A stretch of 51,777 bases of DNA. Origin: Escherichia phage FritzSarasin. Below the pieces are notes generated by a model. The model was not told the origin of the DNA. It saw only the letters and a program-made list of their open reading frames with translations, and did no database searches. A program made the translations under genes and the position numbers. Where the stretch lies: sequence record MZ501069. The stretch is one strand, 5' to 3'. This document shows positions 6,718 through 28,299 of the stretch, piece by piece (within the stretch, counting starts at the first letter, position 1; the number at the start of each line of letters is the position of its first letter).

Positions 6718-6736
6718 GTTTAACAAAAAGTGCTAT
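6718..6736 (-). promoter_or_regulatory. conserved motif copy, reverse orientation, upstream of capsid gene
   Basis: GTTTAACAAAAAGTGCTAT; pairs with partial AATAGCATAAAAAAAC at 6695-6710 as an inverted repeat. Confidence 0.45.
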
Positions 6737-6742
6737 CATCTA

Positions 6743-6782: not shown

Positions 6783-7754
6783 ATGGCTAAAAAATATGAT
6801 GAACTAGATGCTACGATTGTAGCGAATCATTTGCAGATTCAGGGTGTTAAGACCGACGCTTCTGATATGGGTATTTGGACCGCTCAAGAGCTACACAAGA
6901 TCCGCTCTACCGCATACGAGAAAGAGTATCCGGCAGGTTCCGCGCTTCGCGTATTCCCTGTAACAAACGAGCTTTCTGATACTGACAAGACTTTCGAATA
7001 TCAGACTTTTGATAAGGTTGGCTACGCGAAAATTATCGCCGACTACACCGATGATCTGCCGACTGTGGACGCGTTGATGACTTCTGAGTTTGGCAAAGTG
7101 TTCCGCCTGGGTAACGCTTATCTGATCTCCATTGATGAGATTAAAGCAGGTCAGCGAACTGGCAAGAGCCTGTCAACTCGCAAGGCTAACGCTGCGCAAA
7201 ATGCGCATGATCAGTTGATTAACTTCCTGGTGTTCAAAGGTTCCAAGCCTCATAAGATCGTTTCCGTTTTCGATCATCCTAACCTTACGAAAATTGCATC
7301 CAAAGGCTGGATGAGCAATGACGGCAATACCAAGTTCCCGCAGGTAGCAAGCGATGAACTGGAGGCCGCAATCGAAACGATCGAGGAAGTAACCAAAGGT
7401 CAGCACCGCGCGACCAATATCCTGATCCCGCCGTCCATGCGCAAAGTCCTGACGGTTCGAATGGAAAATACCACTGAAAGTTATCTGGAATACTTCCAGA
7501 AGCAAAACGGCGGTATCACTATCGACTCTATCGCAGAGCTTGAGGATATTGACGGCAAAGGTACGAAAGGTTGCTTGGTTTACGAAAAAGATCCAATGAA
7601 CATGAGCATTGAGATTCCAGAAGCGTTTAACATGCTTCCGGCGCAGCCAAAAGACCTACATTTCAAGGTTCCTTGCACTTCCAAGTGTACTGGCCTTACG
7701 ATTTATCGTCCGTTTACGATGGTGCTCATTACCGGCTTGAAAAAAGCTGAGTAA
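6783..7754 (+). CDS. major capsid protein
   Basis: 323 aa; strong RBS GGAGG; position and size typical of a siphovirus major capsid protein. Confidence 0.6.
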   Translation: MAKKYDELDATIVANHLQIQGVKTDASDMGIWTAQELHKIRSTAYEKEYPAGSALRVFPVTNELSDTDKTFEYQTFDKVGYAKIIADYTDDLPTVDALMTSEFGKVFRLGNAYLISIDEIKAGQRTGKSLSTRKANAAQNAHDQLINFLVFKGSKPHKIVSVFDHPNLTKIASKGWMSNDGNTKFPQVASDELEAAIETIEEVTKGQHRATNILIPPSMRKVLTVRMENTTESYLEYFQKQNGGITIDSIAELEDIDGKGTKGCLVYEKDPMNMSIEIPEAFNMLPAQPKDLHFKVPCTSKCTGLTIYRPFTMVLITGLKKAE

Positions 7755-10471: not shown

Positions 10472-10490
10472 TTTTAACAAAAAGTGCTAT
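10472..10490 (-). promoter_or_regulatory. conserved motif copy, reverse orientation, abutting RBS of chaperone gene
   Basis: TTTTAACAAAAAGTGCTAT directly followed by AAGGAG and ATG 10505. Confidence 0.45.
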
Positions 10491-10504
10491 AAGGAGATCT
10501 TGAG

Positions 10505-10822
10505 ATGGCAAAGATGAAACTAACGTTAGGCCCACTGCCTGATTTTAAGCTACCTGTTTCTTTTGTGCTTCCAAATGGTGATGAGCAAGTTATTGTTTTT
10601 ACCGTGCGCCACAAGAAGGCAAGCGAGATTCACGAACGATACACGGCAGAAAAGCCGATGAGCGACGTAGAAATGATCACCTTCCTTGCTTCCGGTTGGG
10701 ATCTGGAAGATGAATTTAACGAGGAAAACGTTGCTAAATTGCTGGATTATTACCCTTCTGCGTCATTATCGCTGACTGGTCATTATATGAAAGCACTTGC
10801 GGGGCAGCGGGTAAAAAACTAA
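10505..10822 (+). CDS. tail assembly chaperone (lambda G-like)
   Basis: 105 aa immediately upstream of tape measure; ends just after a slippery heptamer. Confidence 0.7.
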   Translation: MAKMKLTLGPLPDFKLPVSFVLPNGDEQVIVFTVRHKKASEIHERYTAEKPMSDVEMITFLASGWDLEDEFNEENVAKLLDYYPSASLSLTGHYMKALAGQRVKN

Positions 10823-15037: not shown

Positions 15038-15768
15038 TGATTAGTGCAAAAATTAAACTTGAAATAATGCAGCACGTTAAAGAGGAATACCCTAAAGAGG
15101 CTTGCGGCGTCATAACTCAAAAGTCACGGGTACAGAAATATCACCGCATAACCAACGTGCATGACGATCCAGAAAATCATTTTGAAATGGACGCCGTAGA
15201 ATACGCTGAATCGCTCGACAAAGGCGAATTAGTCGCGGTGGTGCATTCCCATTGCGGGGATGGTGCTAGTACGATACCGAGCGCGCACGACTCATGTATG
15301 TGCGATGAAATGGGTGTGTCGTGGATTATAGTGTCATGGCCCGAAGGTGATATGAGAATTGTCGAGCCGCAGGAGAGGCCGCTTATCGGTCGCCCGTGGT
15401 CGCTTGGGTCGTTCGATTGCTGGGGTCTTATCATGGCGTGGCATAAACAGCACGGAGTAGTATTGAATGACTTCCGAAAGCCTTACGAGTGGTGGAAGTC
15501 AGAATATGGTGAAAATCTTTACCAGGATAATTATTTAAAAGAGGGATTTATTGAAACTAACGAGCCTCCAAAACCTGGCGATATGGTGATTATGCAGCTA
15601 TCATCGCCAGTCTGGAATCATGCGGGGATTTATTTGGGTAACAACCAGCTATTACATCATGCGTTTGGAAAGTTATCTCGCATCGACTTGTATTCTGGAT
15701 GGTATCAGGAGCACACTGTAAAAATTTGCCGACATAAGGATCTGAAATATGACATTGAAAGTAATTAA
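15037..15768 (+). CDS. tail assembly protein (lambda K-like, MPN/JAB + NlpC/P60)
   Basis: ATG 15037 overlaps L stop (TAATG); JAB motif VVHSHCGDGASTIPSAHD; later Cys/His residues consistent with NlpC/P60. Confidence 0.8.
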   Translation: MISAKIKLEIMQHVKEEYPKEACGVITQKSRVQKYHRITNVHDDPENHFEMDAVEYAESLDKGELVAVVHSHCGDGASTIPSAHDSCMCDEMGVSWIIVSWPEGDMRIVEPQERPLIGRPWSLGSFDCWGLIMAWHKQHGVVLNDFRKPYEWWKSEYGENLYQDNYLKEGFIETNEPPKPGDMVIMQLSSPVWNHAGIYLGNNQLLHHAFGKLSRIDLYSGWYQEHTVKICRHKDLKYDIESN

Positions 15769-16354: not shown

Positions 16355-16377
16355 ACCCGCCTTGCGCGGGTTTTTTT
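16355..16377 (+). terminator. rho-independent terminator
   Basis: ACCCGCC-TTG-CGCGGGT followed by TTTTTTT. Confidence 0.6.
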
Positions 16378-16426
16378 GTGCCTTTATAATGTGCAAACCA
16401 AGAAACAGCACAAAAGGTTAAAAGTC

Positions 16427-19400
16427 ATGGCTAAATATATGATAAGCGGCAGTAAGGGAGGCGGTCAAAAGCCCTACGTGCCAAAAGAGATGGAAGATAA
16501 CCTGATCTCGATAAACAAGATTAAAGTTTTGCTGGCTGTATCTGATGGCGAGTGCGATCCAGATTTTACGTTGCGCGATCTTTATCTTGATGATGTTCCG
16601 GTTATTGCCAGCGATGGCACTGTTAACTACGAGGGAGTTACGGCTGAATATAGACCAGGTACGCAGACGCAAGATTACATCCAGGGTTTTACTGACACAT
16701 CAAGTGAGGTTACAGTTGCCAGAGATATTACCGGAGACAATCCTTATGTTATTTCTGTTACAAATAAAAACCTATCTGCGGTAAGAATAAAGATCCTGAT
16801 GCCAGTAGGCATTAAGCAGGAGGATAACGGCGATCTTGTTGGCGTAAGGGTTGAGTATGCCGTAGATATGGCTGTTGATGGCGGTTCTTATAGCGAGGTT
16901 ATGAGAGATGTAATTGACGGCAAGACAAGATCAGGATACGACCGCAGCAGAAGGATTGATCTTCCTAAGTTTGATGAGCGCGTTTTAATCAGGGTTAAGC
17001 GACTTACCCCAGACAGCACATCTTCAAAGGTGACTGATAAAATCAAACTGCAAAGTTACGCTGAGGTTGTGGATGCAAAATTCCGTTATCCTCTGACTGG
17101 CCTTGTATTTGTAGAATTTGACAGCGAATTGTTTCCTACACAAATCCCTAACATTTCTATAAAAAAGAAATGGAAGATTATTAATGTGCCAAGCAACTAT
17201 GATCCAATATCAAGAGAATATCACGGGTCATGGGATGGGACTTTTAAAAAAGCGTGGTCAAATAATCCTGCATGGGTTCTTTATGATCTGGTGACGAATC
17301 AGCGTTATGGACTTGACCAGCGAGAGTTAGGAATACAGATCGACAAGTGGAGCTTATACGAGGCAGGCGTTTACTGTGATCAGAAAGTTCCAGACGGCAA
17401 GGGCGGTACAGAGCCTCGCTACCTATGCGATGTGGTGATCCAGAATCAGGTTGAGGCTTATCAGCTAATCCGTGACATTTGCTCAATCTTTCGCGGAATG
17501 AGCTTTTGGAATGGAGAGAGCTTATCAATCGTAATTGATAAACCGCGCGATCCATCATACGTGTTTACTAATGAAAACGTCATCAACGGTGATTTTCAGT
17601 ACACAGCAGCAAGCGAAAAAAGCATGTACACGCAATGTAATGTGACGTTTGACGACGAACAAAACATGTATCAGCAGGACGTAGAGGGGGTTTTTGATAC
17701 TGAGGCGGCATTACGATTTGGATACAATCCAACAAGCATTACAGCGATCGGGTGTACACGCAGGAGCGAAGCGAATCGTCGCGGTCGGTGGGTTTTGAAA
17801 ACAAACCTTAGAAGCACTACTGTAAACTTTGCTACCGGACTAGAGGGGATGATTCCATCCATAGGTGATGTGATTGCTATCGCTGATAATTTTCAGAGCA
17901 GCAATATAACGTTAAATCTTTCGGGCCGAGTAATGGAAGTTTCAGGCTTGCAAGTTTTCGTTCCGTTTAAAGTTGATGCGCGCCCTGGTGATTTTATTAT
18001 CATCAATAAGCCGGACGGCAAGCCAGTTAAGCGAACGATCTCAAAGGTGAGCGCAGACGGAAAAACCATTGAGTTAAATATTGGCTTTGGTTTTGATGTT
18101 AAGCCTGATACTGTTTTTGCGATTGACCGTACTGACCTTGCGTTGCAGCAATACGTTGTGACAACTATCAGCAAGGGTGATGACGAAAACGAGTTTACCT
18201 TTTCAATCACGGCTGTGGAGTACGATCCGAACAAATACGACGAGATTGATTATGGCGTAAACATTGATGACAGGCCAACTTCAATTGTTCAGCCTGACGT
18301 GATGGCAGCGCCGGAGAATGTTCAGATCTCATCTTATTCTCGCGTCGTGCAGGGTGTTAGCGTTGAAACTATGGTTGTTTCATGGGATAAGGTTCCTTAC
18401 GCATCGCTTTATGAAATGCAGTGGCGAAAAGGTGATGGTAACTGGCTGAATACGCCGCAGACCGCTAACAAAGAGATAGAGGTAGAAGGAATTTATTCAG
18501 GCAACTACCAAGTAAGGGTTAGATCTGTTTCTGCAAGTGGGAACACCTCCCCGTGGTCAAAGATTGTAACCGCCACCCTGACAGGTAAAGTTGGCGAGCC
18601 AGGAGCGCCGATTAATCTTACAGCTTCTGATAATGAAGTTTTTGGCATTCGTGTCAAATGGGGTATGCCGGAAGGATCAGGAGATACGGCTTACATTGAG
18701 CTTCACCAATCGCCAGATGGAACGGTGGAAAACTCAAGTTTGCTTACGCTGATCCCGTATCCTCAATATGAGTATTGGCATAGTACGTTACCAGCGGGGA
18801 AAGTTGTATGGTATAGAATCCGTAGCGTTGACAGAATAGGAAACGTTTCCGGCTGGACTGACTTTGTTCGTGGCATGGCGTCAGATGATGTTGAATCTGT
18901 TTTAGGCGACATTCTGGACAAGATTTTTGATACCGAAGCTGGTCAAGAAATCAAAGAGAACGCCATAGACAGTGCCAACAAAATCAAAGACCAAGCGCAA
19001 TCAATCATCCAGAACGCTTTGGCAAATGATTCTGATGTTAGAGTTATGAGAAAGGAGAATGGGAAACGGAAAGCTGAATTTAGGCAATCTATACAGATGA
19101 TTGCTGATGAAACAGAGGCAAGGGTAACAGCGTTAACGCAATTAAAAGCAGAATTTGATGAGGAGATAACTAGCGAAGTAACAAGACTTGATCAGGCGAT
19201 CGCAACAGAATCAGAAACGCGAGCAACAGCTATAGAGGAATTAAAATCACAGATTGGTGATGATATACAGGGGCAGTTAACGAGAGTTGAGGAAGCGATT
19301 GCAAGCGAAACAGAGGCGCGCGTTTCTGCCGATACTGCATTAACGGCAAAGTTTGGTGATCTTGAGTCGGCACTTACTGAAAAACTTGATTCATGGGCTG

Positions 19401-19852
19401 GCGTTGATTCCGTTGGTGCTCAATATTCAATGAAGCTGGGCCTAACCTATAACGGTCAGCAGTACAGCGCCGGAATGGTTATGCAGTTAACGCAATCACC
19501 GCAAGGATTAATATCACAGATTCTGTTTGACGCTAACAGATTCGCGATCATGACAAGTTCTAGCGGCGGGGCATATACGCTTCCTTTCGTGGTTGAGAAT
19601 AACCAGGTTTTCATCAATAGCTTACTTGTGAAAGATGGTTCAATAACTAATGCCATGATTGGAAACTTTATTCAGTCAAACAATTTTGTTCAAAATCAGC
19701 AAGGTTGGAGGCTTGATAAAAACGGAACATTTGAAAACTACGGATCAACTCCAGGAGAGGGAGCTACTAAATTCACCAACGAAGGATTGAAGGTAAAAGA
19801 TGCAAACGGAGTATTGAGGGTTGAAGTCGGAAGGATTACCGGAAGCTGGTAA
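16427..19852 (+). CDS. host specificity protein / central tail fibre (lambda J-like)
   Basis: About 1140 aa from ATG 16427 (track start 16376 lies inside the terminator); last gene of the tail module. Confidence 0.85.
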   Translation: MAKYMISGSKGGGQKPYVPKEMEDNLISINKIKVLLAVSDGECDPDFTLRDLYLDDVPVIASDGTVNYEGVTAEYRPGTQTQDYIQGFTDTSSEVTVARDITGDNPYVISVTNKNLSAVRIKILMPVGIKQEDNGDLVGVRVEYAVDMAVDGGSYSEVMRDVIDGKTRSGYDRSRRIDLPKFDERVLIRVKRLTPDSTSSKVTDKIKLQSYAEVVDAKFRYPLTGLVFVEFDSELFPTQIPNISIKKKWKIINVPSNYDPISREYHGSWDGTFKKAWSNNPAWVLYDLVTNQRYGLDQRELGIQIDKWSLYEAGVYCDQKVPDGKGGTEPRYLCDVVIQNQVEAYQLIRDICSIFRGMSFWNGESLSIVIDKPRDPSYVFTNENVINGDFQYTAASEKSMYTQCNVTFDDEQNMYQQDVEGVFDTEAALRFGYNPTSITAIGCTRRSEANRRGRWVLKTNLRSTTVNFATGLEGMIPSIGDVIAIADNFQSSNITLNLSGRVMEVSGLQVFVPFKVDARPGDFIIINKPDGKPVKRTISKVSADGKTIELNIGFGFDVKPDTVFAIDRTDLALQQYVVTTISKGDDENEFTFSITAVEYDPNKYDEIDYGVNIDDRPTSIVQPDVMAAPENVQISSYSRVVQGVSVETMVVSWDKVPYASLYEMQWRKGDGNWLNTPQTANKEIEVEGIYSGNYQVRVRSVSASGNTSPWSKIVTATLTGKVGEPGAPINLTASDNEVFGIRVKWGMPEGSGDTAYIELHQSPDGTVENSSLLTLIPYPQYEYWHSTLPAGKVVWYRIRSVDRIGNVSGWTDFVRGMASDDVESVLGDILDKIFDTEAGQEIKENAIDSANKIKDQAQSIIQNALANDSDVRVMRKENGKRKAEFRQSIQMIADETEARVTALTQLKAEFDEEITSEVTRLDQAIATESETRATAIEELKSQIGDDIQGQLTRVEEAIASETEARVSADTALTAKFGDLESALTEKLDSWAGVDSVGAQYSMKLGLTYNGQQYSAGMVMQLTQSPQGLISQILFDANRFAIMTSSSGGAYTLPFVVENNQVFINSLLVKDGSITNAMIGNFIQSNNFVQNQQGWRLDKNGTFENYGSTPGEGATKFTNEGLKVKDANGVLRVEVGRITGSW

Positions 19853-19880: not shown

Positions 19881-20507
19881 TTAATCATAGTGTGATGCAT
19901 TTATAACCAAAACAGATGAAGCGGTGTAAATACCAACAGGTCCAGGGGTTTGTGCAACCTGCCTAGAAAAAGAGTAGATCCCGTTACCATACGCGGCAGC
20001 TTGAGACTCAAAAATCATAAATCCACCTAAAGCCGGATTAGGTACAGAGTTTAACGCTGTTAGTGATGGCATTATTGCGCAAGGGTAGCCCAGGTTAACA
20101 TCAAACGCGATCCCGCTCACACCAACTTGCTTTGCATCAAGCGGCCTCATTTTTCCATGATAAACCATTTCACCATGAGCGTTATAAAACGCTATGCCGT
20201 GACTACCTGGAGGAGTCACCATGTTACTAAAAGCATAAACAATAACCTCCCCTTGATTATCAGATCTATCAATTCTTATTGCGTGCCTTCCACCATTGTT
20301 AAATTGCGTAAATGATATGTATGATTTAGCAGTCAATCTAACAAAGAAAAAACATACCCTATCAACAGGAATTGACGAAGTAAAAACGGTTCCGGTATTA
20401 GCAGATATTACGGCCCGATCAATTAGATTAACTGGAGTGAAATCTGGACTTAACCATAACGATCCGTCTGGTTTTTTTATGCTCATCCCGTACATTATCA
20501 CCCCCAA
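19881..20507 (-). CDS. hypothetical protein (cor-like operon, distal gene)
   Basis: 208 aa; start overlaps stop of upstream ORF by 10 nt. Confidence 0.55.
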   Translation of the reverse strand: MGVIMYGMSIKKPDGSLWLSPDFTPVNLIDRAVISANTGTVFTSSIPVDRVCFFFVRLTAKSYISFTQFNNGGRHAIRIDRSDNQGEVIVYAFSNMVTPPGSHGIAFYNAHGEMVYHGKMRPLDAKQVGVSGIAFDVNLGYPCAIMPSLTALNSVPNPALGGFMIFESQAAAYGNGIYSFSRQVAQTPGPVGIYTASSVLVINASHYD

Positions 20508-20776
20508 AAAGTATATATATATCTTGAATCAGATCCAGAAAGTCCACTCCATGTAACGGTGTCGCCACTTACTCCTAAGCTTGGTGCGCCAGGGTCGCCA
20601 CCGCGCCAGGAATTCATGCCAACATATATTGCTTTCAATGATTTACCTGGCGGCCTGTTTTGGTAAGTCTTGCTACCTGATGGCTGAGTGAATTTATCAA
20701 GAAAGAAAACAGGCGTTAAAAGTCCTGTAACTTCCCTCCCTCGATCGTCATATATTGCATAACCATATTGCGCCAT
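20498..20776 (-). CDS. hypothetical protein (cor-like operon, middle gene)
   Basis: 92 aa; start overlaps lipoprotein stop by 1 nt (TAATG). Confidence 0.5.
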   Translation of the reverse strand: MAQYGYAIYDDRGREVTGLLTPVFFLDKFTQPSGSKTYQNRPPGKSLKAIYVGMNSWRGGDPGAPSLGVSGDTVTWSGLSGSDSRYIYTFWG

Positions 20777-21051
20777 TAATTACACCTCAAATCAATAAAT
20801 TTACTTTCATTTTGCCAGCGGTTGATAAATTTAACTTCTTTATTGTCAACGCTCAACCTGTATTGCTTTTGGCTGAATCTGTTTTCGCGGACTGCATTAA
20901 TTTTGACCTCATGGAATCCGTTAACAGGGAATGTTTTAACGTTAAATTTTGCCGTGCAATCGATCTCTTTGAAGCCGCCAGTAGGCGACGCTGCGCATCC
21001 GGTCAGAGCGGCTACGGTGGCGATAACTGCGATTAATTTTTTCATCTTCAA
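20776..21051 (-). CDS. small lipoprotein, Cor-like superinfection-exclusion candidate
   Basis: 91 aa; signal peptide with lipobox LTGC; Cor-like by size, lipoprotein character and proximity to tail genes; homology not verified. Confidence 0.5.
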   Translation of the reverse strand: MKMKKLIAVIATVAALTGCAASPTGGFKEIDCTAKFNVKTFPVNGFHEVKINAVRENRFSQKQYRLSVDNKEVKFINRWQNESKFIDLRCN

Positions 21052-21100: not shown

Positions 21101-21120
21101 GTTTAGCAAAAAGTGCTACT
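21101..21120 (-). promoter_or_regulatory. conserved promoter-module motif, variant copy (leftward)
   Basis: Minus-strand reading AGTAGCACTTTTTGCTAAAC, about 21 nt, then TATAGT; lipoprotein ATG about 70 nt downstream. Confidence 0.5.
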
Positions 21121-22602: not shown

Positions 22603-22677
22603 CAAACTAAACAAATAGCTAAACTTTTATAATGGTTGGTGATATAATTCGCCAACCAGATAACGGGAGAATGAGAG

Positions 22678-22935
22678 ATGACAGATAAAGACAATGCCAC
22701 ATTATTGCATTTAGAGCGATTCATTGATCGAGTAACCATTGCAATGAAAGAATTTATTAAGCCGATGAACATTAAAGAGTCGGAAGAAATGAAGACTTAC
22801 ATCAAGGACGTGGTTGCATCCATTGACAACGTTATCCTTGTTGCAACGATGAGCAAGGGAAACAAAGAGCGCGAGAGGTTGGTTGCTGAATCAACAGAAG
22901 AATTTATTAAAATGCTTGAAAGCGAGAAGGAATAA
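22678..22935 (+). CDS. hypothetical protein
   Basis: 85 aa with RBS GGGAGAATGAGAG upstream; between exonuclease and Erf. Confidence 0.5.
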   Translation: MTDKDNATLLHLERFIDRVTIAMKEFIKPMNIKESEEMKTYIKDVVASIDNVILVATMSKGNKERERLVAESTEEFIKMLESEKE

Positions 22936-23635: not shown

Positions 23636-24082
23636 ATGCACGTTATTACAGGTGAGATCCGAAAAGAGCCAAAAGTAAAGCAAATGCCTAACGGTAGCAC
23701 GCTATATGTTGTTGAGCTTTCCGAACGATATAAAGACCGTGAAGGCAATTGGCAGTATACAAACTATGTATTTTTCTTTAACGCGAAAACAGACGGCCTG
23801 AATGGTTGGTATGCTGAGGCGTTCCAGGTAGGCAAGGTTATTTCTGTTTCCTGCGATACCTTGCGAGTTGAAACGCGAGAATACAACGGAAAGATTTACA
23901 GCACCGTGCAGCCTGGCGGATTTGCAAACTTGCTATTTAGCCAGCGTGGGGAAAGCCAGCAACAATATCAGCAGCGCACTCAAGGTGGATGGGGGCAACC
24001 ACAACAGCAACAAATCCCTCAACAGCAACCACAGCAAAGCAATCAGCCGCCGATTGACTTTGATGACGATATACCTTTCTGA
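23636..24082 (+). CDS. ssb: single-stranded DNA-binding protein
   Basis: 148 aa; OB-fold-like N-terminus, Q/G/P-rich linker, acidic tail ending DFDDDIPF. Confidence 0.85.
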   Translation: MHVITGEIRKEPKVKQMPNGSTLYVVELSERYKDREGNWQYTNYVFFFNAKTDGLNGWYAEAFQVGKVISVSCDTLRVETREYNGKIYSTVQPGGFANLLFSQRGESQQQYQQRTQGGWGQPQQQQIPQQQPQQSNQPPIDFDDDIPF

Positions 24083-24083
24083 T

Positions 24084-24113
24084 AAAAAGCCCCGCACATG
24101 CGGGGCTTTTTTT
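24084..24113. terminator. bidirectional terminator
   Basis: AAAAA-GCCCCGCACATGCGGGGC-TTTTTTT between convergent SSB and tail-fibre genes. Confidence 0.65.
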
Positions 24114-26721
24114 AGTCTGTATCTGTTGGATTGTTGATTAATTTCGCTACCGCTTTTCTTAGATCATCTATCTCTTTCTCCATTTTCTCAATTTTCCCCC
24201 CCATGTAGACCATAGCGCAAGCCATATCTGTTAGCATAACATTGCTATCTAGCGCCAATGTGTCATCATTTCTGTCAGTTTCAATCTGACGATCAATGTA
24301 TTCCTCACCATTTTCATCAACTCCAATCACATCCTCAAATACCGGCGAGCCTGGAACTAGCTTTACATATTGTGGATCGATTTTTAACAGATCTTGAGCT
24401 ATCAGGCCAAAACGTTGAACATCAGATCCGTTATATTTAAACATAGCAGGCAACCATTGCATTACGCGATCGTAGCTTTCCTTTCCGTCTGTGTATTTAA
24501 TGTCGTGTTTCAAATCACGATCGGACGTTGGGTTTTTTGCGAAAATAAAAGCACCTCCGCCGAAACCTTGCTCCCATGTAGTAATGTCACCAGCATATGT
24601 AAAATGATAAGCACGATGAAAACGACCATCACCATTTAACTTTAGCGCTACATCAGGCCACGCGGCATTTCCGTTTGATACAACACCAAGCCCAACTCGC
24701 ATATGATAACCGCCAGTTGATAAAGAGCCACCAGAAACAACAGGACTCCAACCAGAGTCATTGTTTGTAACTGAGTTTGCGTAGTATGGCGCCCCCATGT
24801 GATCCCATTCAAGACCCCATGCGCCTTGTACACACTGACCATTAAAACCACGCTGCGCAGTCATGTATCCACCGTAATCATTGTGGAATCTAAACTCTTT
24901 GACGTCAGATCCTTGATTATTAACCAATACTTTTACATGGGCTATATCAGTAGAGCCGCCTCTTACAGCGCCAAATTGCCAGAATCCACCGTACCAGTTG
25001 CCTTGTAGCAAGTTTACCCATCCATAAGCTCCACCATCTCCTGATGCGTTTGTCAGGTAAATATCTTTATCACCTCCTTCGGCAGTTCCGCAGCCAACTC
25101 GCATTGCCTGTTTTGCAGTAATCCACCCGTTAGAGTAAAGCCCACCAGTTCCATTGATTTCAACATGATGTAGACCTGATAACTTTGAGTTTTCATCAAA
25201 TTGCAGGTATCCGTGCTTGTCTCCTTCATTGTTTGCTGTATGTATTGTTGTTTTCCATAATCCGCCTTGCTTTTCAGCGTATACCCGAGAATAACCCCGA
25301 GAAACACCATCATCACCCTTTGCGTGTAAATTCAAGATTCCACTAAGCTCAGCAGCTCCAGCATATTGATGAACAAGATCTAGATCGGAAAATCTTGGTG
25401 TTTGTCTCTCACCCAATCCAAGACCATCCCTAAACAAAAGAATATCGCGGATAACATAATCATTAATCGCATAGAATCCTGTGTTAGTTAAAACCATTGC
25501 CCTTACTTCTGTACATTCAGCGGCAGGATCTGTCGCACCAAACTTAAAAACTGTTGCGTTTTCAACAAAACCATCTGGCGCATAATCTGATGTTGGGACA
25601 ACAACATCAATATTGCTTTCACAGTGAATGCTAACAGGAAATGCGCCGCCTCGAATGTAAACTGCAAACGCCTTTTGTGTTGCTTTCGCTGGCATCAAAA
25701 TAGAATCAATAGTTCTTTCATCTTTCTGATAGATGGTGAAATTACCATAAACGCTATCAACGCCGTCAGACCATCCAGAAGTACGAGCATAGCCAGCAAA
25801 TGACGCTGAATTATAAGGATAATCACCAGTCCTATTACTAGTTGAGATCTGGAAGAAAACGCCTAATTGACTCATATCACCAACGTTCTTTTCTTGGAAG
25901 ATCACAGGGTAATATTTTGCATCTTCCGCACCCGCTGGAGCGTTTACAGTTCTTTCGTATTTCCAGCCCTGATAACCTACAACTGCTTGATGCGCTCTAT
26001 CAGCTTCCATTTCGGCGCGGTTTGCTTGCTGCAATGCGTTGGCTGAATGGTTAGCAGCCTGATCTCGCGCACTTTCTGCGCCTGTTTTAGCCTCAATCGC
26101 CTGATCTTTTAGCGACGATGTATCGCTTTTAATCTGATTCATTTCAACAACAGCTTGATCTTTAGTCTGGTTTACAGTCAGCACACCCTGATCTCGCGCC
26201 GAGTTAATTTCCGCTACCGCTGAATCTTTGATCTGTTGCGTTTGTTGCATGTAGCCTTTTGCTGATTCAGCATGATTAAAAGATTGACCAGCCCATGTTT
26301 GCGCGTTTTGTTCGCTTTGTGCTGCTGATGCCGCATTTCTCACTGTTTCATCACGTAAGTCAATCAGCTTTTGCAGATCAAAGTTCCTGAAAAATTCAAT
26401 TGCTTCCTCTATCTGCGTTTCCTTGCTTTGATAGTAGCGCAGCGTTTCAGCTACATCTTGCGCCAGACCGTCAACAGTGATCGAGTCATGCAGTAAAATG
26501 ATGTAATTGCTTCGCGCAATTTCAGATCCGCCAGTTGTGATGGCGCGGATTTGCGTATCACTAATAACCTCACTGATTACCGCCGCCTGAAAAGGGGCGT
26601 CAATAAAAAATATTGTCGCACCTGGGCGAATCAAGGTTAATTGCTCACGCCATTTTGTGTCGTAACCAGTTACATAACCTTGCGCGTCCATAGACGCTTG
26701 GCCTTGTCTGTAAATTGCCAT
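24112..26721 (-). CDS. tail fibre protein with C-terminal intramolecular chaperone (S74-like) domain
   Basis: 869 aa from ATG at 26721 (AGGAGG RBS); C-terminal block DLKHDIKYTD...RFGLIAQDL...LINNPTDTD resembles self-cleaving chaperone domains. Confidence 0.8.
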   Translation of the reverse strand: MAIYRQGQASMDAQGYVTGYDTKWREQLTLIRPGATIFFIDAPFQAAVISEVISDTQIRAITTGGSEIARSNYIILLHDSITVDGLAQDVAETLRYYQSKETQIEEAIEFFRNFDLQKLIDLRDETVRNAASAAQSEQNAQTWAGQSFNHAESAKGYMQQTQQIKDSAVAEINSARDQGVLTVNQTKDQAVVEMNQIKSDTSSLKDQAIEAKTGAESARDQAANHSANALQQANRAEMEADRAHQAVVGYQGWKYERTVNAPAGAEDAKYYPVIFQEKNVGDMSQLGVFFQISTSNRTGDYPYNSASFAGYARTSGWSDGVDSVYGNFTIYQKDERTIDSILMPAKATQKAFAVYIRGGAFPVSIHCESNIDVVVPTSDYAPDGFVENATVFKFGATDPAAECTEVRAMVLTNTGFYAINDYVIRDILLFRDGLGLGERQTPRFSDLDLVHQYAGAAELSGILNLHAKGDDGVSRGYSRVYAEKQGGLWKTTIHTANNEGDKHGYLQFDENSKLSGLHHVEINGTGGLYSNGWITAKQAMRVGCGTAEGGDKDIYLTNASGDGGAYGWVNLLQGNWYGGFWQFGAVRGGSTDIAHVKVLVNNQGSDVKEFRFHNDYGGYMTAQRGFNGQCVQGAWGLEWDHMGAPYYANSVTNNDSGWSPVVSGGSLSTGGYHMRVGLGVVSNGNAAWPDVALKLNGDGRFHRAYHFTYAGDITTWEQGFGGGAFIFAKNPTSDRDLKHDIKYTDGKESYDRVMQWLPAMFKYNGSDVQRFGLIAQDLLKIDPQYVKLVPGSPVFEDVIGVDENGEEYIDRQIETDRNDDTLALDSNVMLTDMACAMVYMGGKIEKMEKEIDDLRKAVAKLINNPTDTD

Positions 26722-26737
26722 TTGTAAAATCCTCCTA

Positions 26738-26755
26738 AATAGCACTTTTTGCTAA
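26738..26755 (+). promoter_or_regulatory. conserved motif copy abutting RBS of tail-fibre gene (reverse relative to gene)
   Basis: AATAGCACTTTTTGCTAA on the plus strand; on the minus strand it sits directly 5' of AGGAGG and the tail-fibre ATG. Confidence 0.45.
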
Positions 26756-26785
26756 TGACAATGCAGATAATAGCATTTTCAAATG

Positions 26786-26811
26786 CAAAAAAAAACCCCG
26801 CATAAGCGGGG
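26786..26811 (-). terminator. rho-independent terminator (minus strand)
   Basis: On the minus strand CCCCGCTTATGCGGGG followed by a T9 run, downstream of the primase gene. Confidence 0.65.
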
Positions 26812-26827
26812 TAATACTAGCGGAGTT

Positions 26828-27784
26828 TTATAGCAGTGATTCGGGCTTGTAGAGTTTTCTTTCTACGCCCTGTTTAAAATTATCGTTAACAGGCATCATT
26901 ATGTCAAGACCTCTTTCCTCTGCCGCGATTATCACATCACGATCATCCTTCCGGCAGACTACGCGCATTCTTCTTTCTCCTTTATATCTATGCGCAACCA
27001 TTTCAAGATTTGAAGGAGTAAAGCAAGCCCACACCTCTTGACCAGTTGATAAATGAACATGCTGGGAATCAACCCAATCAAGGCACAAATAGATCGTCTT
27101 ATCCGTGCTACCTGTTTTAACAACAGATCCGCGCGTGTAGTCGCGAGCTAAAAACCAATCCTTTCCATCCTCATCAATGAAAAGCACGTTACACATTTCA
27201 TCATCCAGCCCGTCATCATGCACCAGGTGACAAGGTAGCGCGTGAATGTATCGACCATCCTTGACGCCGCAATCATAATGACAATCTTCCGGCGGATATA
27301 TCCCCTCATAAACGCTTAAGGGTGTGCGATCGAATTTTAATGTTTTTGCCATCACTTTTTCGCAGCATTCATGACTTGCCTGTTTCCCGAACGAGTAGCC
27401 AGAAGAACGTGAAGCGCGCTTGTTTGCTCTGATCCTGTAATCTTGTGGCACTTTGCCGAGGAAGCGGCCCAAAATGTTGATGGCCTCGCTGTAAGGTTCG
27501 CCAGTTAATTTCATTAACCAACCGATCCCTGTGTCGTTACCGCATACGTTGCAGATCGCGCCGCCGTCGCCCTCTTCATTTAGCTTATCAGTCCATCTAA
27601 AACGATCCTTACCGCCGCAGTGTGGGCAAGGCTGATGCTTTTTGTTGAAAACATCGCTATGCAGTCCGCAAATGCTTTGTAGTGCTTCACGCCATAACCC
27701 CTTCATATATGGCAAAACATCTTCTTTCTGATAGGTCATAAAGTTTTCAGTATTCATAGCAACCTCAATAAAAAAGCCCAGCAA
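26828..27784 (-). CDS. putative DNA primase (zinc-ribbon type)
   Basis: 318 aa; CPHCGG...CNVCG zinc-ribbon motif near N-terminus; adjacent to helicase region. Confidence 0.55.
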   Translation of the reverse strand: MLGFFIEVAMNTENFMTYQKEDVLPYMKGLWREALQSICGLHSDVFNKKHQPCPHCGGKDRFRWTDKLNEEGDGGAICNVCGNDTGIGWLMKLTGEPYSEAINILGRFLGKVPQDYRIRANKRASRSSGYSFGKQASHECCEKVMAKTLKFDRTPLSVYEGIYPPEDCHYDCGVKDGRYIHALPCHLVHDDGLDDEMCNVLFIDEDGKDWFLARDYTRGSVVKTGSTDKTIYLCLDWVDSQHVHLSTGQEVWACFTPSNLEMVAHRYKGERRMRVVCRKDDRDVIIAAEERGLDIMMPVNDNFKQGVERKLYKPESLL

Positions 27785-28288: not shown

Positions 28289-28299
28289 CTAGTCACCTC

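What the first reader, a model, noticed from the sequence alone, without database searches (positions are those of the whole stretch)
24112..26721. Tail fibre gene lies 4 kb from the tail module, on the opposite strand
The 869-aa fibre with a C-terminal self-cleaving chaperone-like domain lies between the recombination and replication genes on the minus strand, next to primase, rather than beside the J-like gene. It has a reverse-oriented motif copy against its RBS. A displaced receptor-binding gene with its own control is a likely hotspot for host-range exchange.
Basis: partly seen in the sequence, partly recalled or inferred. Interest (0 to 1): 0.4.

Follow-up and report, generated by a model that had tools for sequence, protein, structure and literature searches.

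The report
Standard T1-family lateral tail fibre gene

Summary
An 869-aa minus-strand gene (26721 to 24115) lies between SSB and primase, 4.26 kb from the J-like gene. It has a C-terminal Peptidase_S74 domain and an exact reverse-oriented copy of a repeated 14-mer one base from its Shine-Dalgarno.

The window is a Warwickvirus (Drexlerviridae). The gene is 99.6% identical to the annotated tail fibre of phage NorthRox. The same placement occurs in T1 itself and in eight genera sampled, so the displacement is a family trait.

- Congeneric atuna is 93-100% identical in both flanks but unalignable across the fibre core.
- Cross-genus egaa has a roughly 75% backbone but is about 90-100% identical across most of the fibre core.
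- Sub-gene modules are 84-86% nucleotide-identical to T5-like L-shaped tail fibre genes.

Maffei et al. 2021 already described exactly this for Drexlerviridae. The porin-binding protein is probably the separate cor-linked locus beside J.

The gene appears to be its own transcription unit: an upstream terminator, an extended -10 element conserved across genera, and a bidirectional terminator downstream.

The repeat is the known T1-like 21-nt direct repeat, whose function is unknown. Its reversed copy at the fibre ribosome-binding site is conserved in T1. This is a small unexplained detail.

Verdict: real, correctly interpreted, already known, low interest.

The parts
24115..26721 (-). Lateral tail fibre coding sequence, 869 aa (stop codon at 24112-24114)
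   Evidence: It is 99.6% nucleotide-identical to the NorthRox 'tail fiber protein' and 99.1% identical to the vB_Eco_mar001J1 stf gene.
26374..26721 (-). N-terminal virion-anchor domain (aa 1-116), the only part conserved family-wide
   Evidence: tblastn finds it in 875 phage records, 874 of them covering at least 80% of the query. PDB depolymerases 7LZJ, 7VYV and 7VZ3 match aa 1-184 at E about 1e-46. Identity to T1 ST26 is 44% over aa 1-244.
25987..26373 (-). Ala/Gln-rich, presumably coiled-coil shaft (aa 117-245) of variable length
   Evidence: The sequence is shown. Tonnikala lacks 129 nt here. Egaa lacks aa 155-221.
25435..25974 (-). Central module A (aa 250-429)
   Evidence: tblastn matches it on its own to fibres of T5-like, rV5-like and Aeromonas phages. 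It is 84.1% nucleotide-identical to the L-shaped-fibre-position gene of Citrobacter phage CitS1, an Epseptimavirus. It is absent from the atuna fibre.
24526..25434 (-). Distal module B (aa 430-732), the presumed receptor-binding region
   Evidence: It is 30-50% amino-acid identical to the distal part of T5-like L-shaped tail fibres and matches phrog_5481. BFVD fold hits are all phage tail fibres. No relative was found in the PDB.
24115..24525 (-). Peptidase_S74 intramolecular chaperone domain (aa 733-869); predicted self-cleavage before Ser733
   Evidence: PF13884 covers aa 733-787. S733, D734, R735, D736 and K738 are at least 90% conserved in the homologue alignment. A C-terminal helix is predicted at aa 826-863. 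The region is 85-86% nucleotide-identical to T5-like ltfA genes.
26728..26733 (-). Shine-Dalgarno AGGAGG, 6 nt before the ATG
26738..26751 (+). Exact copy of the T1-like direct repeat core (AATAGCACTTTTTG), reversed relative to the fibre gene
   Evidence: It is conserved in all Warwickvirus genomes checked, in IsaakIselin and in T1. Unlike the other copies, it has no -10 hexamer at the usual +24/25 spacing.
26767..26775 (-). Extended -10 promoter-like element TGCTATTAT, the putative promoter of the fibre gene
   Evidence: A TGn plus -10-like hexamer lies 11-13 nt after the terminator T-run in 12 of 14 genomes from 10 lineages, and 28 nt after it in T1, even where the surrounding sequence differs.
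26786..26812 (-). Intrinsic terminator ending the regulator-primase transcript (7-bp GC stem followed by T9)
24084..24111 (.). Bidirectional intrinsic terminator shared by the convergent SSB and fibre genes
   Evidence: -21.2 and -22.9 kcal/mol, z-scores -6.2 and -6.8. T1 is annotated with terminators on both strands at the same place.

Best explanation
The gene encodes the lateral (side) tail fibre of a Warwickvirus, a T1-like siphovirus of the family Drexlerviridae.

**Domain layout.**
- The conserved N-terminal roughly 116 aa attach the trimer to the tail.
- A coiled-coil shaft of variable length follows.
- Next come two exchangeable distal modules related to T5-type L-shaped tail fibres. 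By analogy these probably bind a surface glycan (O-antigen or LPS) as a reversible primary receptor.
- A C-terminal Peptidase_S74 intramolecular chaperone folds the trimer. It is then probably cut off before Ser733 by a Ser733/Lys738 dyad.

**Location.** Its position between the recombination module and primase, convergent with SSB, is the ancestral arrangement of most of the family, T1 included.

**Expression.** The gene is a self-contained transcription unit. The primase terminator is followed within about 11 nt by an extended -10 sigma-70 promoter, and a bidirectional terminator closes the unit.

**Mosaicism.** The conserved 5' anchor and the conserved 3' S74 and terminator sequences act as homology arms. 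Distal cassettes are therefore swapped among Drexlerviridae genera, T5-like phages and prophages, which makes this locus the family's host-range hotspot.

**Shown here:** gene, domains, synteny, mosaic pattern and conserved regulatory elements.

**Inferred:** receptor class, autocleavage, promoter activity and recombination mechanism.
For: **Identity and annotation.** The gene is 99.6% identical to the NorthRox tail fibre, and NorthRox is classified in Warwickvirus.

**Synteny.** The order SSB | fibre (opposite strand) | primase | regulator | helicase is found in NorthRox, atuna, tonnikala, egaa, PaulSarasin and T1. Primase also sits directly upstream of the fibre gene in DanielBernoulli, PeterMerian, IsaakIselin and Jk06.

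**Anchor.** It occurs in 875 phage records and in the solved Klebsiella phage depolymerases 7LZJ and 7VYV.

**S74 domain and dyad.**

**Mosaicism.**
- Most megablast hits share only nt 1 to about 310-350 of the gene.
- Atuna's flanks are 93-100% identical, against 22-55% across the core in a forced alignment. Identity recovers to 74-75% in the S74 region and to at least 91% from 24200.
- Egaa is about 90-100% identical across most of the fibre core, against a backbone of about 63-86%.
- By protein comparison, atuna lacks module A, and T1 shares only aa 1-244.
- Module A is 84% and the S74 region 85-86% nucleotide-identical to Epseptimavirus fibre genes.
- Prophage and lambda-Stf-type relatives of the core exist.

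**Transcription unit.**

**Literature.**
- Maffei 2021 (PMC8594841, S1C Fig) describes conserved, syntenic flanks with only the 5' end of the fibre gene shared.
- Cho 2025 (PMC12090712) shows that a Drexlerviridae tail fibre uses O-antigen and sets host range. The fibre anchor of this window matches that phage's annotated tail fibre protein at 58% amino-acid identity (H127).
Against: - No receptor can be assigned.
- The two AlphaFold monomer models were of low confidence (pLDDT 60 and 68; pTM 0.30 and 0.38). They gave no significant PDB match, with TM-scores of at most 0.16.
- The solved T5 pb1 structures were not detected by sequence. The only weak hit was to the L-shaped tail fibre chain 8hqz_d (DT57C-type by length), at E = 0.004 and over the chaperone region only.
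- Promoter activity is inferred from conservation alone. No transcription-start data for the family were found.
- The T1 fibre has no S74 motif, so the chaperone is not universal at this locus.
- The role of the reversed repeat is unexplained.
Confidence: 0.9

Rival explanations
1. The gene was recently displaced or acquired in this particular phage (a translocation or moron-like insertion), so its location is unusual.
For: It is separated from J by 4.26 kb and lies on the opposite strand. In the Drexlerviridae genus Sauletekiovirus (phage AAS23), the fibre gene follows the membrane-associated gene that lies next to J in T1, on the same strand. This shows that the lambda-like arrangement exists within the family.
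Against: The arrangement is identical in T1 (Tunavirinae), in five Tempevirinae genera and in Rogunavirus Jk06. The upstream control region is identical across Warwickvirus genomes, whichever fibre allele follows it.
Confidence: 0.02
2. The protein is an enzymatic tailspike or depolymerase rather than a binding fibre.
For: The N-terminal 184 aa match the solved Klebsiella phage capsule depolymerases 7LZJ, 7VYV and 7VZ3 at E about 1e-46.
Against: The similarity stops at the anchor and coiled coil. No hydrolase, lyase or beta-helix family is found in Pfam. The core is homologous to the distal parts of T5-like L-shaped fibres and to PHROG 'tail fiber' families.
Confidence: 0.05
3. This fibre is the terminal (porin) receptor-binding protein that alone fixes host range.
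For: It is the largest variable adhesin-like gene in the genome.
Against: A separate locus lies directly beside J. It comprises a Cor-like lipoprotein (20776-21051), a 92-aa protein and a 208-aa protein (19881-20507), matching phrog_1119, phrog_557 and phrog_425. In Drexlerviridae, allelic variants of that locus match the porin receptor (PMC8594841). K-12 hosts lacking O-antigen support relatives that carry very different fibres (host fields).
Confidence: 0.05
4. The reversed repeat copy has no role in fibre expression. It is either a decayed divergent promoter or a passenger sequence, and the fibre is expressed mainly by read-through or from the extended -10 alone.
For: The copy lacks the TTAAAA part of the repeat and lacks a -10 hexamer at the canonical +24/25 spacing. 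It is absent from egaa, vB_EcoP_06 (upstream region not printed, but it shows the same 46-nt ext-10-to-ATG spacing as egaa), PaulSarasin, PMBT35, DanielBernoulli, Jk06, Alina and AAS23, which all still carry the extended -10. The 5' UTR shows no significant RNA structure (z = -1.2).
Against: The same reversed copy abuts the fibre ribosome-binding site in T1, IsaakIselin and all Warwickvirus genomes checked, even though T1 shows no detectable nucleotide similarity to the window at the fibre locus and only about 65-70% where it aligns elsewhere. Two other reversed late-region copies are also conserved in position between T1 and this window.
Confidence: 0.5

Closest known systems
Lateral tail fibre of T1 (ST26) and of BASEL Drexlerviridae (e.g. 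Bas09 PaulSarasin 'lateral tail fiber protein')
   Same: The locus, strand and neighbours are the same. The N-terminal anchor is homologous: 44% identity to T1 over aa 1-244 and 62% to PaulSarasin over aa 1-222. A terminator-promoter cassette lies upstream in both.
   Different: The distal two-thirds is unrelated to T1, which has no S74 motif. PaulSarasin and egaa carry four extra downstream genes that are absent here.
L-shaped tail fibre of T5-like phages (pb1 / LtfA; Demerecviridae, Markadamsvirinae)
   Same: The architecture is the same: shaft, distal binding region and an S74 chaperone. Identity is 30-50% at the amino-acid level over aa 426-735, and 84-86% at the nucleotide level for module A and the S74 region against Epseptimavirus genes.
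   Different: The N-terminal attachment domain and the genome context differ. The solved pb1 structures were not detectable by sequence. The glycan specificity is unknown.
Capsule depolymerase tailspikes of Klebsiella phages (PDB 7LZJ, 7VYV, 7VZ3)
   Same: The N-terminal anchor and the start of the coiled coil match (aa 1-184, E about 1e-46).
   Different: Their C-terminal catalytic part has no counterpart here.
Endosialidase-type intramolecular chaperone (Peptidase_S74)
   Same: The Pfam match is full-length, and the Ser-x4-Lys motif sits at the domain start.
   Different: Cleavage has not been demonstrated for this protein.
21-nt direct repeat of T1-like phages (aaATAGCACnnnTTGnTAAAA; German et al. 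2024, PMC11447400)
   Same: The core sequence is the same. There are about 20 intergenic copies in the window, most of them facing the downstream gene.
   Different: The published description says the repeats lie in the direction of transcription. The fibre copy is reversed, lacks the TAAAA end and lacks a correctly spaced -10.

Membership tests
Drexlerviridae lateral tail fibre | Homologous N-terminal anchor domain | tested here: met
   875 phage records match aa 1-116. Identity is 44% to T1, 62% to PaulSarasin and 58% to atuna.
Drexlerviridae lateral tail fibre | Locus between the recombination/SSB genes and primase, on the strand opposite to the structural genes | tested here: met
   for the window. 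for the relatives.
Drexlerviridae lateral tail fibre | Protein is a fibre on the virion tail | not testable with these tools
   This needs virion proteomics or electron microscopy.
Peptidase_S74 intramolecular chaperone | Pfam PF13884 match above the gathering score, at the C-terminus | tested here: met
   34.5 bits against a cut-off of 22. The match covers aa 733-787 and profile positions 1-58 of 58.
Peptidase_S74 intramolecular chaperone | Catalytic Ser and Lys five residues apart at the cleavage site | tested here: met
   S733-D-R-D-L-K738. Both residues are at least 90% conserved among 25 homologues. That this spacing is the catalytic dyad comes from prior knowledge of endosialidase and T5 pb1.
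Peptidase_S74 intramolecular chaperone | Autoproteolytic release after trimer folding | not testable with these tools
   This needs protein chemistry.
T5-type L-shaped tail fibre (pb1/LtfA) distal region | Sequence homology of the distal region to annotated LTF proteins | tested here: met
   tblastn gives 30-50% identity over query residues 177-486, including EscoHU1 'L-shaped tail fiber protein A' at E = 1e-31.
T5-type L-shaped tail fibre (pb1/LtfA) distal region | Same fold as the solved pb1 receptor-binding domain | tested here: inconclusive
   The monomer models were of low confidence and gave no significant PDB match. BFVD hits were to tail fibres only, with TM-scores of 0.2-0.5.
T5-type L-shaped tail fibre (pb1/LtfA) distal region | Attachment through the T5 collar protein and its N-terminal domain | tested here: not met
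   The N-terminus is the Drexlerviridae anchor, not the T5 type. The relation to T5 fibres is therefore at the level of modules only.
T1-like 21-nt direct repeat | Match to the consensus aaATAGCACnnnTTGnTAAAA | tested here: inconclusive
   The core AAATAGCACTTTTTG is exact, but the 3' part reads CTAATG instead of nTAAAA.
T1-like 21-nt direct repeat | Oriented in the direction of local transcription, upstream of a gene | tested here: not met
   The fibre copy is reversed relative to both neighbouring genes (fibre and primase), which are both on the minus strand.

The most novel reading that the evidence does not exclude
The asymmetric T1-family direct repeat may be a protein-recognised promoter element at about -51 to -32 of early and middle promoters. 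In reversed orientation, placed between a late promoter and the ribosome-binding site, the same site may act as an operator or roadblock (stoperator-like), or as a competing RNA polymerase docking site.

Such reversed copies occur at three late genes: the fibre at 26738-26751, the tail gene at 10505 and the capsid gene at 6783. All three positions are conserved in T1.

If this reading is right, one recognition event would switch on early genes and hold back the virion genes, including the host-range fibre. This would answer the open question posed in the TLS paper about what the repeat does.
Probability: 0.12. Interest if true: 0.5.

Novelty: already known. Interest (0 to 1): 0.15.

Why it matters
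The practical value is limited. The result confirms that in this phage, as in its family, the conserved anchor, the S74 domain and the terminators frame a plug-in cassette. That framing is what one would exploit to re-target T1-like phages.

It also separates the glycan-binding fibre locus from the porin-binding locus beside J. The two should not be confused when predicting host range.

The one point that goes beyond the literature is positional conservation. Reversed copies of the family's enigmatic 21-nt repeat sit at the starts of late genes in both T1 and this phage. This gives a concrete handle for testing how these phages, which lack their own RNA polymerase, time late transcription.

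Tried and rejected
**1. Fold assignment of the central and distal region.** Two AlphaFold2 runs were made, on aa 250-869 and aa 430-735, each with an alignment of 25 sequences. They gave pLDDT 60 and 68 and pTM 0.30 and 0.38. Foldseek against the PDB gave nothing below E = 1e-3, with TM-scores of at most 0.16; the top hits (sialidases, beta-propeller lectins) were noise. BFVD returned only other tail fibres. A monomer model of an intertwined trimer is not adequate, so no receptor-binding fold can be named.

**2. Sequence search of the PDB.** I searched with the whole protein, with the profile and with aa 430-869. Only the N-terminal depolymerase anchors were found, plus a weak S74 hit to 8hqz_d.

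**3. The reversed repeat as an antisense promoter into primase.** I rejected this as the simple reading, because neither the window nor T1 has a -10 hexamer at the family's fixed +24/25 spacing.

**4. A structured 5' UTR or riboswitch-like leader.** The fold is not better than shuffled sequence (z = -1.2).

**5. A canonical -35/-10 promoter for the fibre.** The scan found none between the terminator and the ATG. The only conserved element there is the extended -10.

**6. Literature on transcription start sites in Drexlerviridae.** None was found.

**7. Terminator scan.** The scan missed the terminator between SSB and the fibre gene because its A/T arms extend the stem. Folding shows the terminator clearly.
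Full report
**What is there.** The window is essentially a whole genome of a T1-like siphovirus. Structural genes run on the + strand up to a lambda-J-like tail tip gene ending at 19852, which carries PF09327, PF24801 and PF13550. The gene in question is on the minus strand. The ORF listing gives a GTG start at 26745. The real start is ATG 26721, because AGGAGG lies 6 nt upstream and all homologues begin MAIY/MALY. This gives 869 aa, with the stop at 24112-24114. The gene is convergent with SSB (ending at 24082) and follows primase (26828-27784). On the other side lie the exonuclease VIII-like, Erf and SSB genes. The gap to J is 4.26 kb. Every factual element of the finding is therefore confirmed, including the C-terminal Peptidase_S74 domain (PF13884, aa 733-787, 34.5 bits against a cut-off of 22) and the motif SDRDLK, which gives Ser733/Lys738.

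**Identity.** The gene is 99.6% identical to the annotated tail fibre of Escherichia phage NorthRox and 99.1% to the stf gene of vB_Eco_mar001J1. It is 99.9% identical to the tonnikala gene apart from a 129-nt in-frame deletion in tonnikala. NorthRox, tonnikala and atuna are Drexlerviridae, Tempevirinae, Warwickvirus.

**The position is canonical, not displaced.** The order J, receptor-binding/cor locus, exonuclease VIII, Erf, SSB, then the fibre on the opposite strand, then primase, regulator and helicase is found in these phages:
- NorthRox, atuna and tonnikala
- egaa (Hanrivervirus)
- PaulSarasin (Changchunvirus)
- T1 itself, where the fibre is ST26 and terminators are annotated on both strands between ST27 and ST26

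Primase also lies directly upstream of the fibre gene in DanielBernoulli (Tlsvirus), PeterMerian, IsaakIselin (Henuseptimavirus) and Jk06 (Rogunavirinae). Two exceptions were seen. In Webervirus Alina, SSB lies upstream on the same strand. In Sauletekiovirus AAS23, the fibre gene follows the membrane-associated gene that lies next to J in T1, as in lambdoid phages. The arrangement is thus an old trait shared by several subfamilies.

**Architecture of the protein.**
- **aa 1 to about 116: anchor.** tblastn finds it in 875 phage records: 397 Klebsiella, 322 Escherichia and others. It is also the N-terminus of the solved Klebsiella phage depolymerases 7LZJ, 7VYV and 7VZ3 (E about 1e-46 over aa 1-184).
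- **aa about 117-245: shaft.** This Ala/Gln-rich segment varies in length. It is 43 aa shorter in tonnikala, and aa 155-221 are missing in egaa.
- **aa 250-429 (module A) and aa 430-732 (module B).** These behave as separate units. Module A alone matches fibres of T5-like, rV5-like and Aeromonas phages. Module B matches the distal part of T5-like L-shaped tail fibres at 30-50% identity.
- **aa 733-869: S74 intramolecular chaperone.** The Ser and Lys are at least 90% conserved in 25 homologues, and a long C-terminal helix is predicted.

No Pfam family other than S74 is detected. PHROGs give only 'tail fiber protein' families.

Most of the 69 megablast hits share only the first 310-350 nt of the gene. 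Within Warwickvirus, the fibre genes are 1974, 2211, 2304, 2400, 2481, 2610 and 2742 nt long, all behind a virtually identical upstream region.
- **Atuna (same genus).** A sliding comparison gives 93-100% identity through the regulator and primase. Identity falls to 91%, then 64%, 77% and 51% in the first 400 nt of the fibre, and to 22-55% (forced alignment) from 26300 to 24600. It recovers to 74-75% in the S74 region and is at least 91% from 24200 into SSB. BLAST finds no alignment between 24550 and 26374.
- **Egaa (different genus).** Here the pattern is reversed. The backbone is about 63-86% identical, and the fibre is 84-92% in the anchor, about 90-100% across most of the core (26000-25100, falling to 70-89% in 25000-24600) and 95-97% in the S74 region.
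- **Protein comparison.** Atuna shares aa 1-245 at 58% and aa 430-869 at 45%, and lacks module A. T1 shares only aa 1-244.
- **Across families.** Module A (nt 752-1266) is 84.1% nucleotide-identical to the gene in the L-shaped-fibre position of Citrobacter phage CitS1. The S74 region is 85-86% identical to Klebsiella phage 150049 and to EscoHU1 ltfA. CitS1 and 150049 are Epseptimavirus (Demerecviridae); EscoHU1 is a 123-kb phage whose matching gene is annotated L-shaped tail fiber protein A.
- **Prophages.** The core also has E. coli prophage relatives (814 aa, 43% identity) and a relative carrying a lambda-Stf-type N-terminus.
- **Gene content.** Egaa and PaulSarasin have four extra genes between the fibre and SSB.

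The hotspot interpretation is therefore supported. The junctions fall just inside the conserved anchor and inside or just after the S74 domain. This fits homologous exchange using those conserved ends. That mechanism, possibly helped by the adjacent phage recombination genes, is an inference.

**This is already published.** Maffei et al. [quoted passage not shown] Their S1C Fig shows that the flanking recombination and primase/helicase genes are conserved and syntenic, while only the 5' end of the largest fibre gene is shared. They propose that these fibres bind O-antigen as a dispensable primary receptor. They also report that the terminal porin receptor is set by a separate locus directly downstream of gpJ, together with a superinfection exclusion gene. 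That locus exists here on the minus strand: a Cor-like lipoprotein at 20776-21051, a 92-aa protein and a 208-aa protein, matching phrog_1119, phrog_557 and phrog_425. Cho et al. 2025 (PMC12090712) showed experimentally that two residues of a Drexlerviridae tail fibre change O-serotype host range. The anchor of this window's fibre matches that phage's annotated tail fibre protein at 58%.

**Own control.**
- **Upstream terminator.** Primase ends in a strong intrinsic terminator, a 7-bp GC stem followed by T9.
- **Promoter-like element.** Eleven nt after the T-run lies TGCTATTAT (26775-26767, minus strand), an extended -10 element. A TGn plus -10-like hexamer (mostly 5 of 6 matches) occupies the same place, 11-13 nt after the terminator T-run, in 12 of the 14 genomes from 10 lineages. 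T1 has one 28 nt after it. This includes Webervirus and Sauletekiovirus, where the upstream gene is different. DanielBernoulli instead has a TTGCAT-17-CATAAT promoter.
- **Downstream terminator.** A bidirectional terminator is shared with SSB (z = -6.2 and -6.8).

The gene therefore looks like an autonomous terminator-promoter-gene-terminator unit. This matches the 'transcripton' idea attributed to the T1 genome paper (quoted in PMC11447400). Promoter activity itself is inferred, not shown.

**The motif.** AATAGCACTTTTTG occurs 18 times at up to 1 mismatch, against 0.07 expected. It is the core of the 21-nt direct repeat aaATAGCACnnnTTGnTAAAA reported for TLS, T1, Rtp and Rogue1. Its function is listed there as an open question (PMC11447400). 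In this window, 18 of the copies with an intact core have a -10-like hexamer starting exactly 24-25 nt after the TTG. Several of these have a GC-rich hairpin in the spacer. The repeat therefore spans about -51 to -32 of a promoter family that faces early and middle genes, as well as the cor/receptor-binding operon (copy at 21107-21120). It sits one base from the Shine-Dalgarno, lacks the TAAAA end and has no -10 at the canonical spacing.

The control region belongs to the conserved backbone, not to the swapped cassette. It is identical in Warwickvirus genomes that carry different fibres.

The reversed copy is also present at the fibre ribosome-binding site in IsaakIselin and in T1 (AAATAGCACGAATTGCTAAGC, reversed). 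It is absent in egaa, PaulSarasin, PMBT35, DanielBernoulli, Jk06, Alina and AAS23. Two further reversed copies are conserved in position between this window and T1. One lies before the capsid gene (6724-6737). The other abuts the ribosome-binding site of the gene after the major tail protein (10478-10491). The repeat of the helicase promoter likewise abuts the ribosome-binding site of the divergent regulator gene in both phages. What the reversed copies do is unknown. An operator or roadblock role is possible but untested, and the 5' UTR shows no significant RNA fold.

**What did not work.** Structure prediction of the core as a monomer gave low-confidence models with no meaningful PDB match. 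Matches in the viral structure library were all tail fibres, including T5-like L-shaped fibres and T4-like gp37, but with low TM-scores. No receptor-binding fold or receptor can be named.

**Verdict.** The finding is a correct observation with a correct interpretation. The gene is nevertheless the standard, previously annotated lateral tail fibre of a known phage genus, in the family's standard position, and its hotspot behaviour is already described. Novelty: already known. Interest: low. The positional conservation of the reversed direct repeat at late-gene starts is the only item that goes slightly beyond the literature I could read.

Noticed in passing
window, sense copies at 28299, 30788, 31859, 43522, 43985, 45203, 46471, 46842, 49651 (+) and 21120, 35123, 37285, 37959, 40158, 40885, 42188 (-): The T1-like direct repeat has a -10-like hexamer starting exactly 24-25 nt after its TTG in nearly every copy. 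Several copies have a GC-rich hairpin in the spacer. The repeat therefore behaves as the -51 to -32 part of a promoter family. Its function is listed as unknown in the TLS paper (PMC11447400).
   Followed up: partly
window 6724-6737 (-) and 10478-10491 (-); T1 record positions 15086 (-) and 18850 (-): Two copies of the repeat in the late region point against the structural genes. One lies just upstream of the major capsid gene (6783). The other abuts the ribosome-binding site of the gene after the major tail protein (10505). Both positions are conserved in T1. The 10491 copy has a correctly spaced -10 and would fire antisense into the major tail gene; the 6737 copy is weaker (TATTAG at +25, lacking the final T).
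   Followed up: partly
window 19881-21051 (-), promoter repeat at 21107-21120: The presumed terminal receptor-binding/superinfection-exclusion operon beside J comprises a Cor-like lipoprotein, a 92-aa protein and a 208-aa protein. It is on the minus strand and is driven by a repeat-type promoter. In T1, egaa and PaulSarasin the two larger genes are co-oriented with J, so the module is inverted in Warwickvirus.
   Followed up: partly
window 22675-22929: An 85-aa ORF (22678-22935) between the exonuclease VIII-like gene and Erf is present here and in tonnikala. An ORF occupies the same slot in egaa. It is missing from NorthRox and atuna, where the alignment breaks exactly at this point. This is a second small indel or mosaic point near the fibre locus.
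   Followed up: no
window 26071-26183 (fibre shaft): Tonnikala has an in-frame 129-nt deletion here, with a roughly 16-nt overlap of the flanking alignments that suggests a deletion between short direct repeats. Egaa lacks aa 155-221. Shaft length is therefore polymorphic.
   Followed up: partly
window 26769-26782 (+): A second, degenerate repeat-like sequence (AATAGCATTTTCAA) lies 31 nt from the exact copy and overlaps the extended -10 of the fibre gene on the opposite strand.
   Followed up: no
L019 (Pantoea phage AAS23) and L018 (Klebsiella phage Alina): Not all Drexlerviridae share the T1 arrangement. In AAS23 the fibre gene follows, on the same strand, the membrane-associated gene that lies next to J in T1. 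In Alina, SSB lies upstream on the same strand. Both still have the terminator plus extended -10 cassette.
   Followed up: partly
GenBank records MG065636, MG065671, MG065687, MG065657 and others ('Campylobacter phage' A16a, A120, A136, C4): About 20 records labelled as Campylobacter jejuni phages, 47-50 kb long, carry this coliphage-type fibre anchor at up to 96% identity. They look like T1-like coliphage genomes deposited under a Campylobacter label.
   Followed up: no
window 16376-19852: the ORF listing starts the J-like ORF at TTG 16376. The 3426-nt homologues in NorthRox, atuna and tonnikala imply the ATG at 16427, giving a protein that begins MAKYMISGSKGGG.
   Followed up: no
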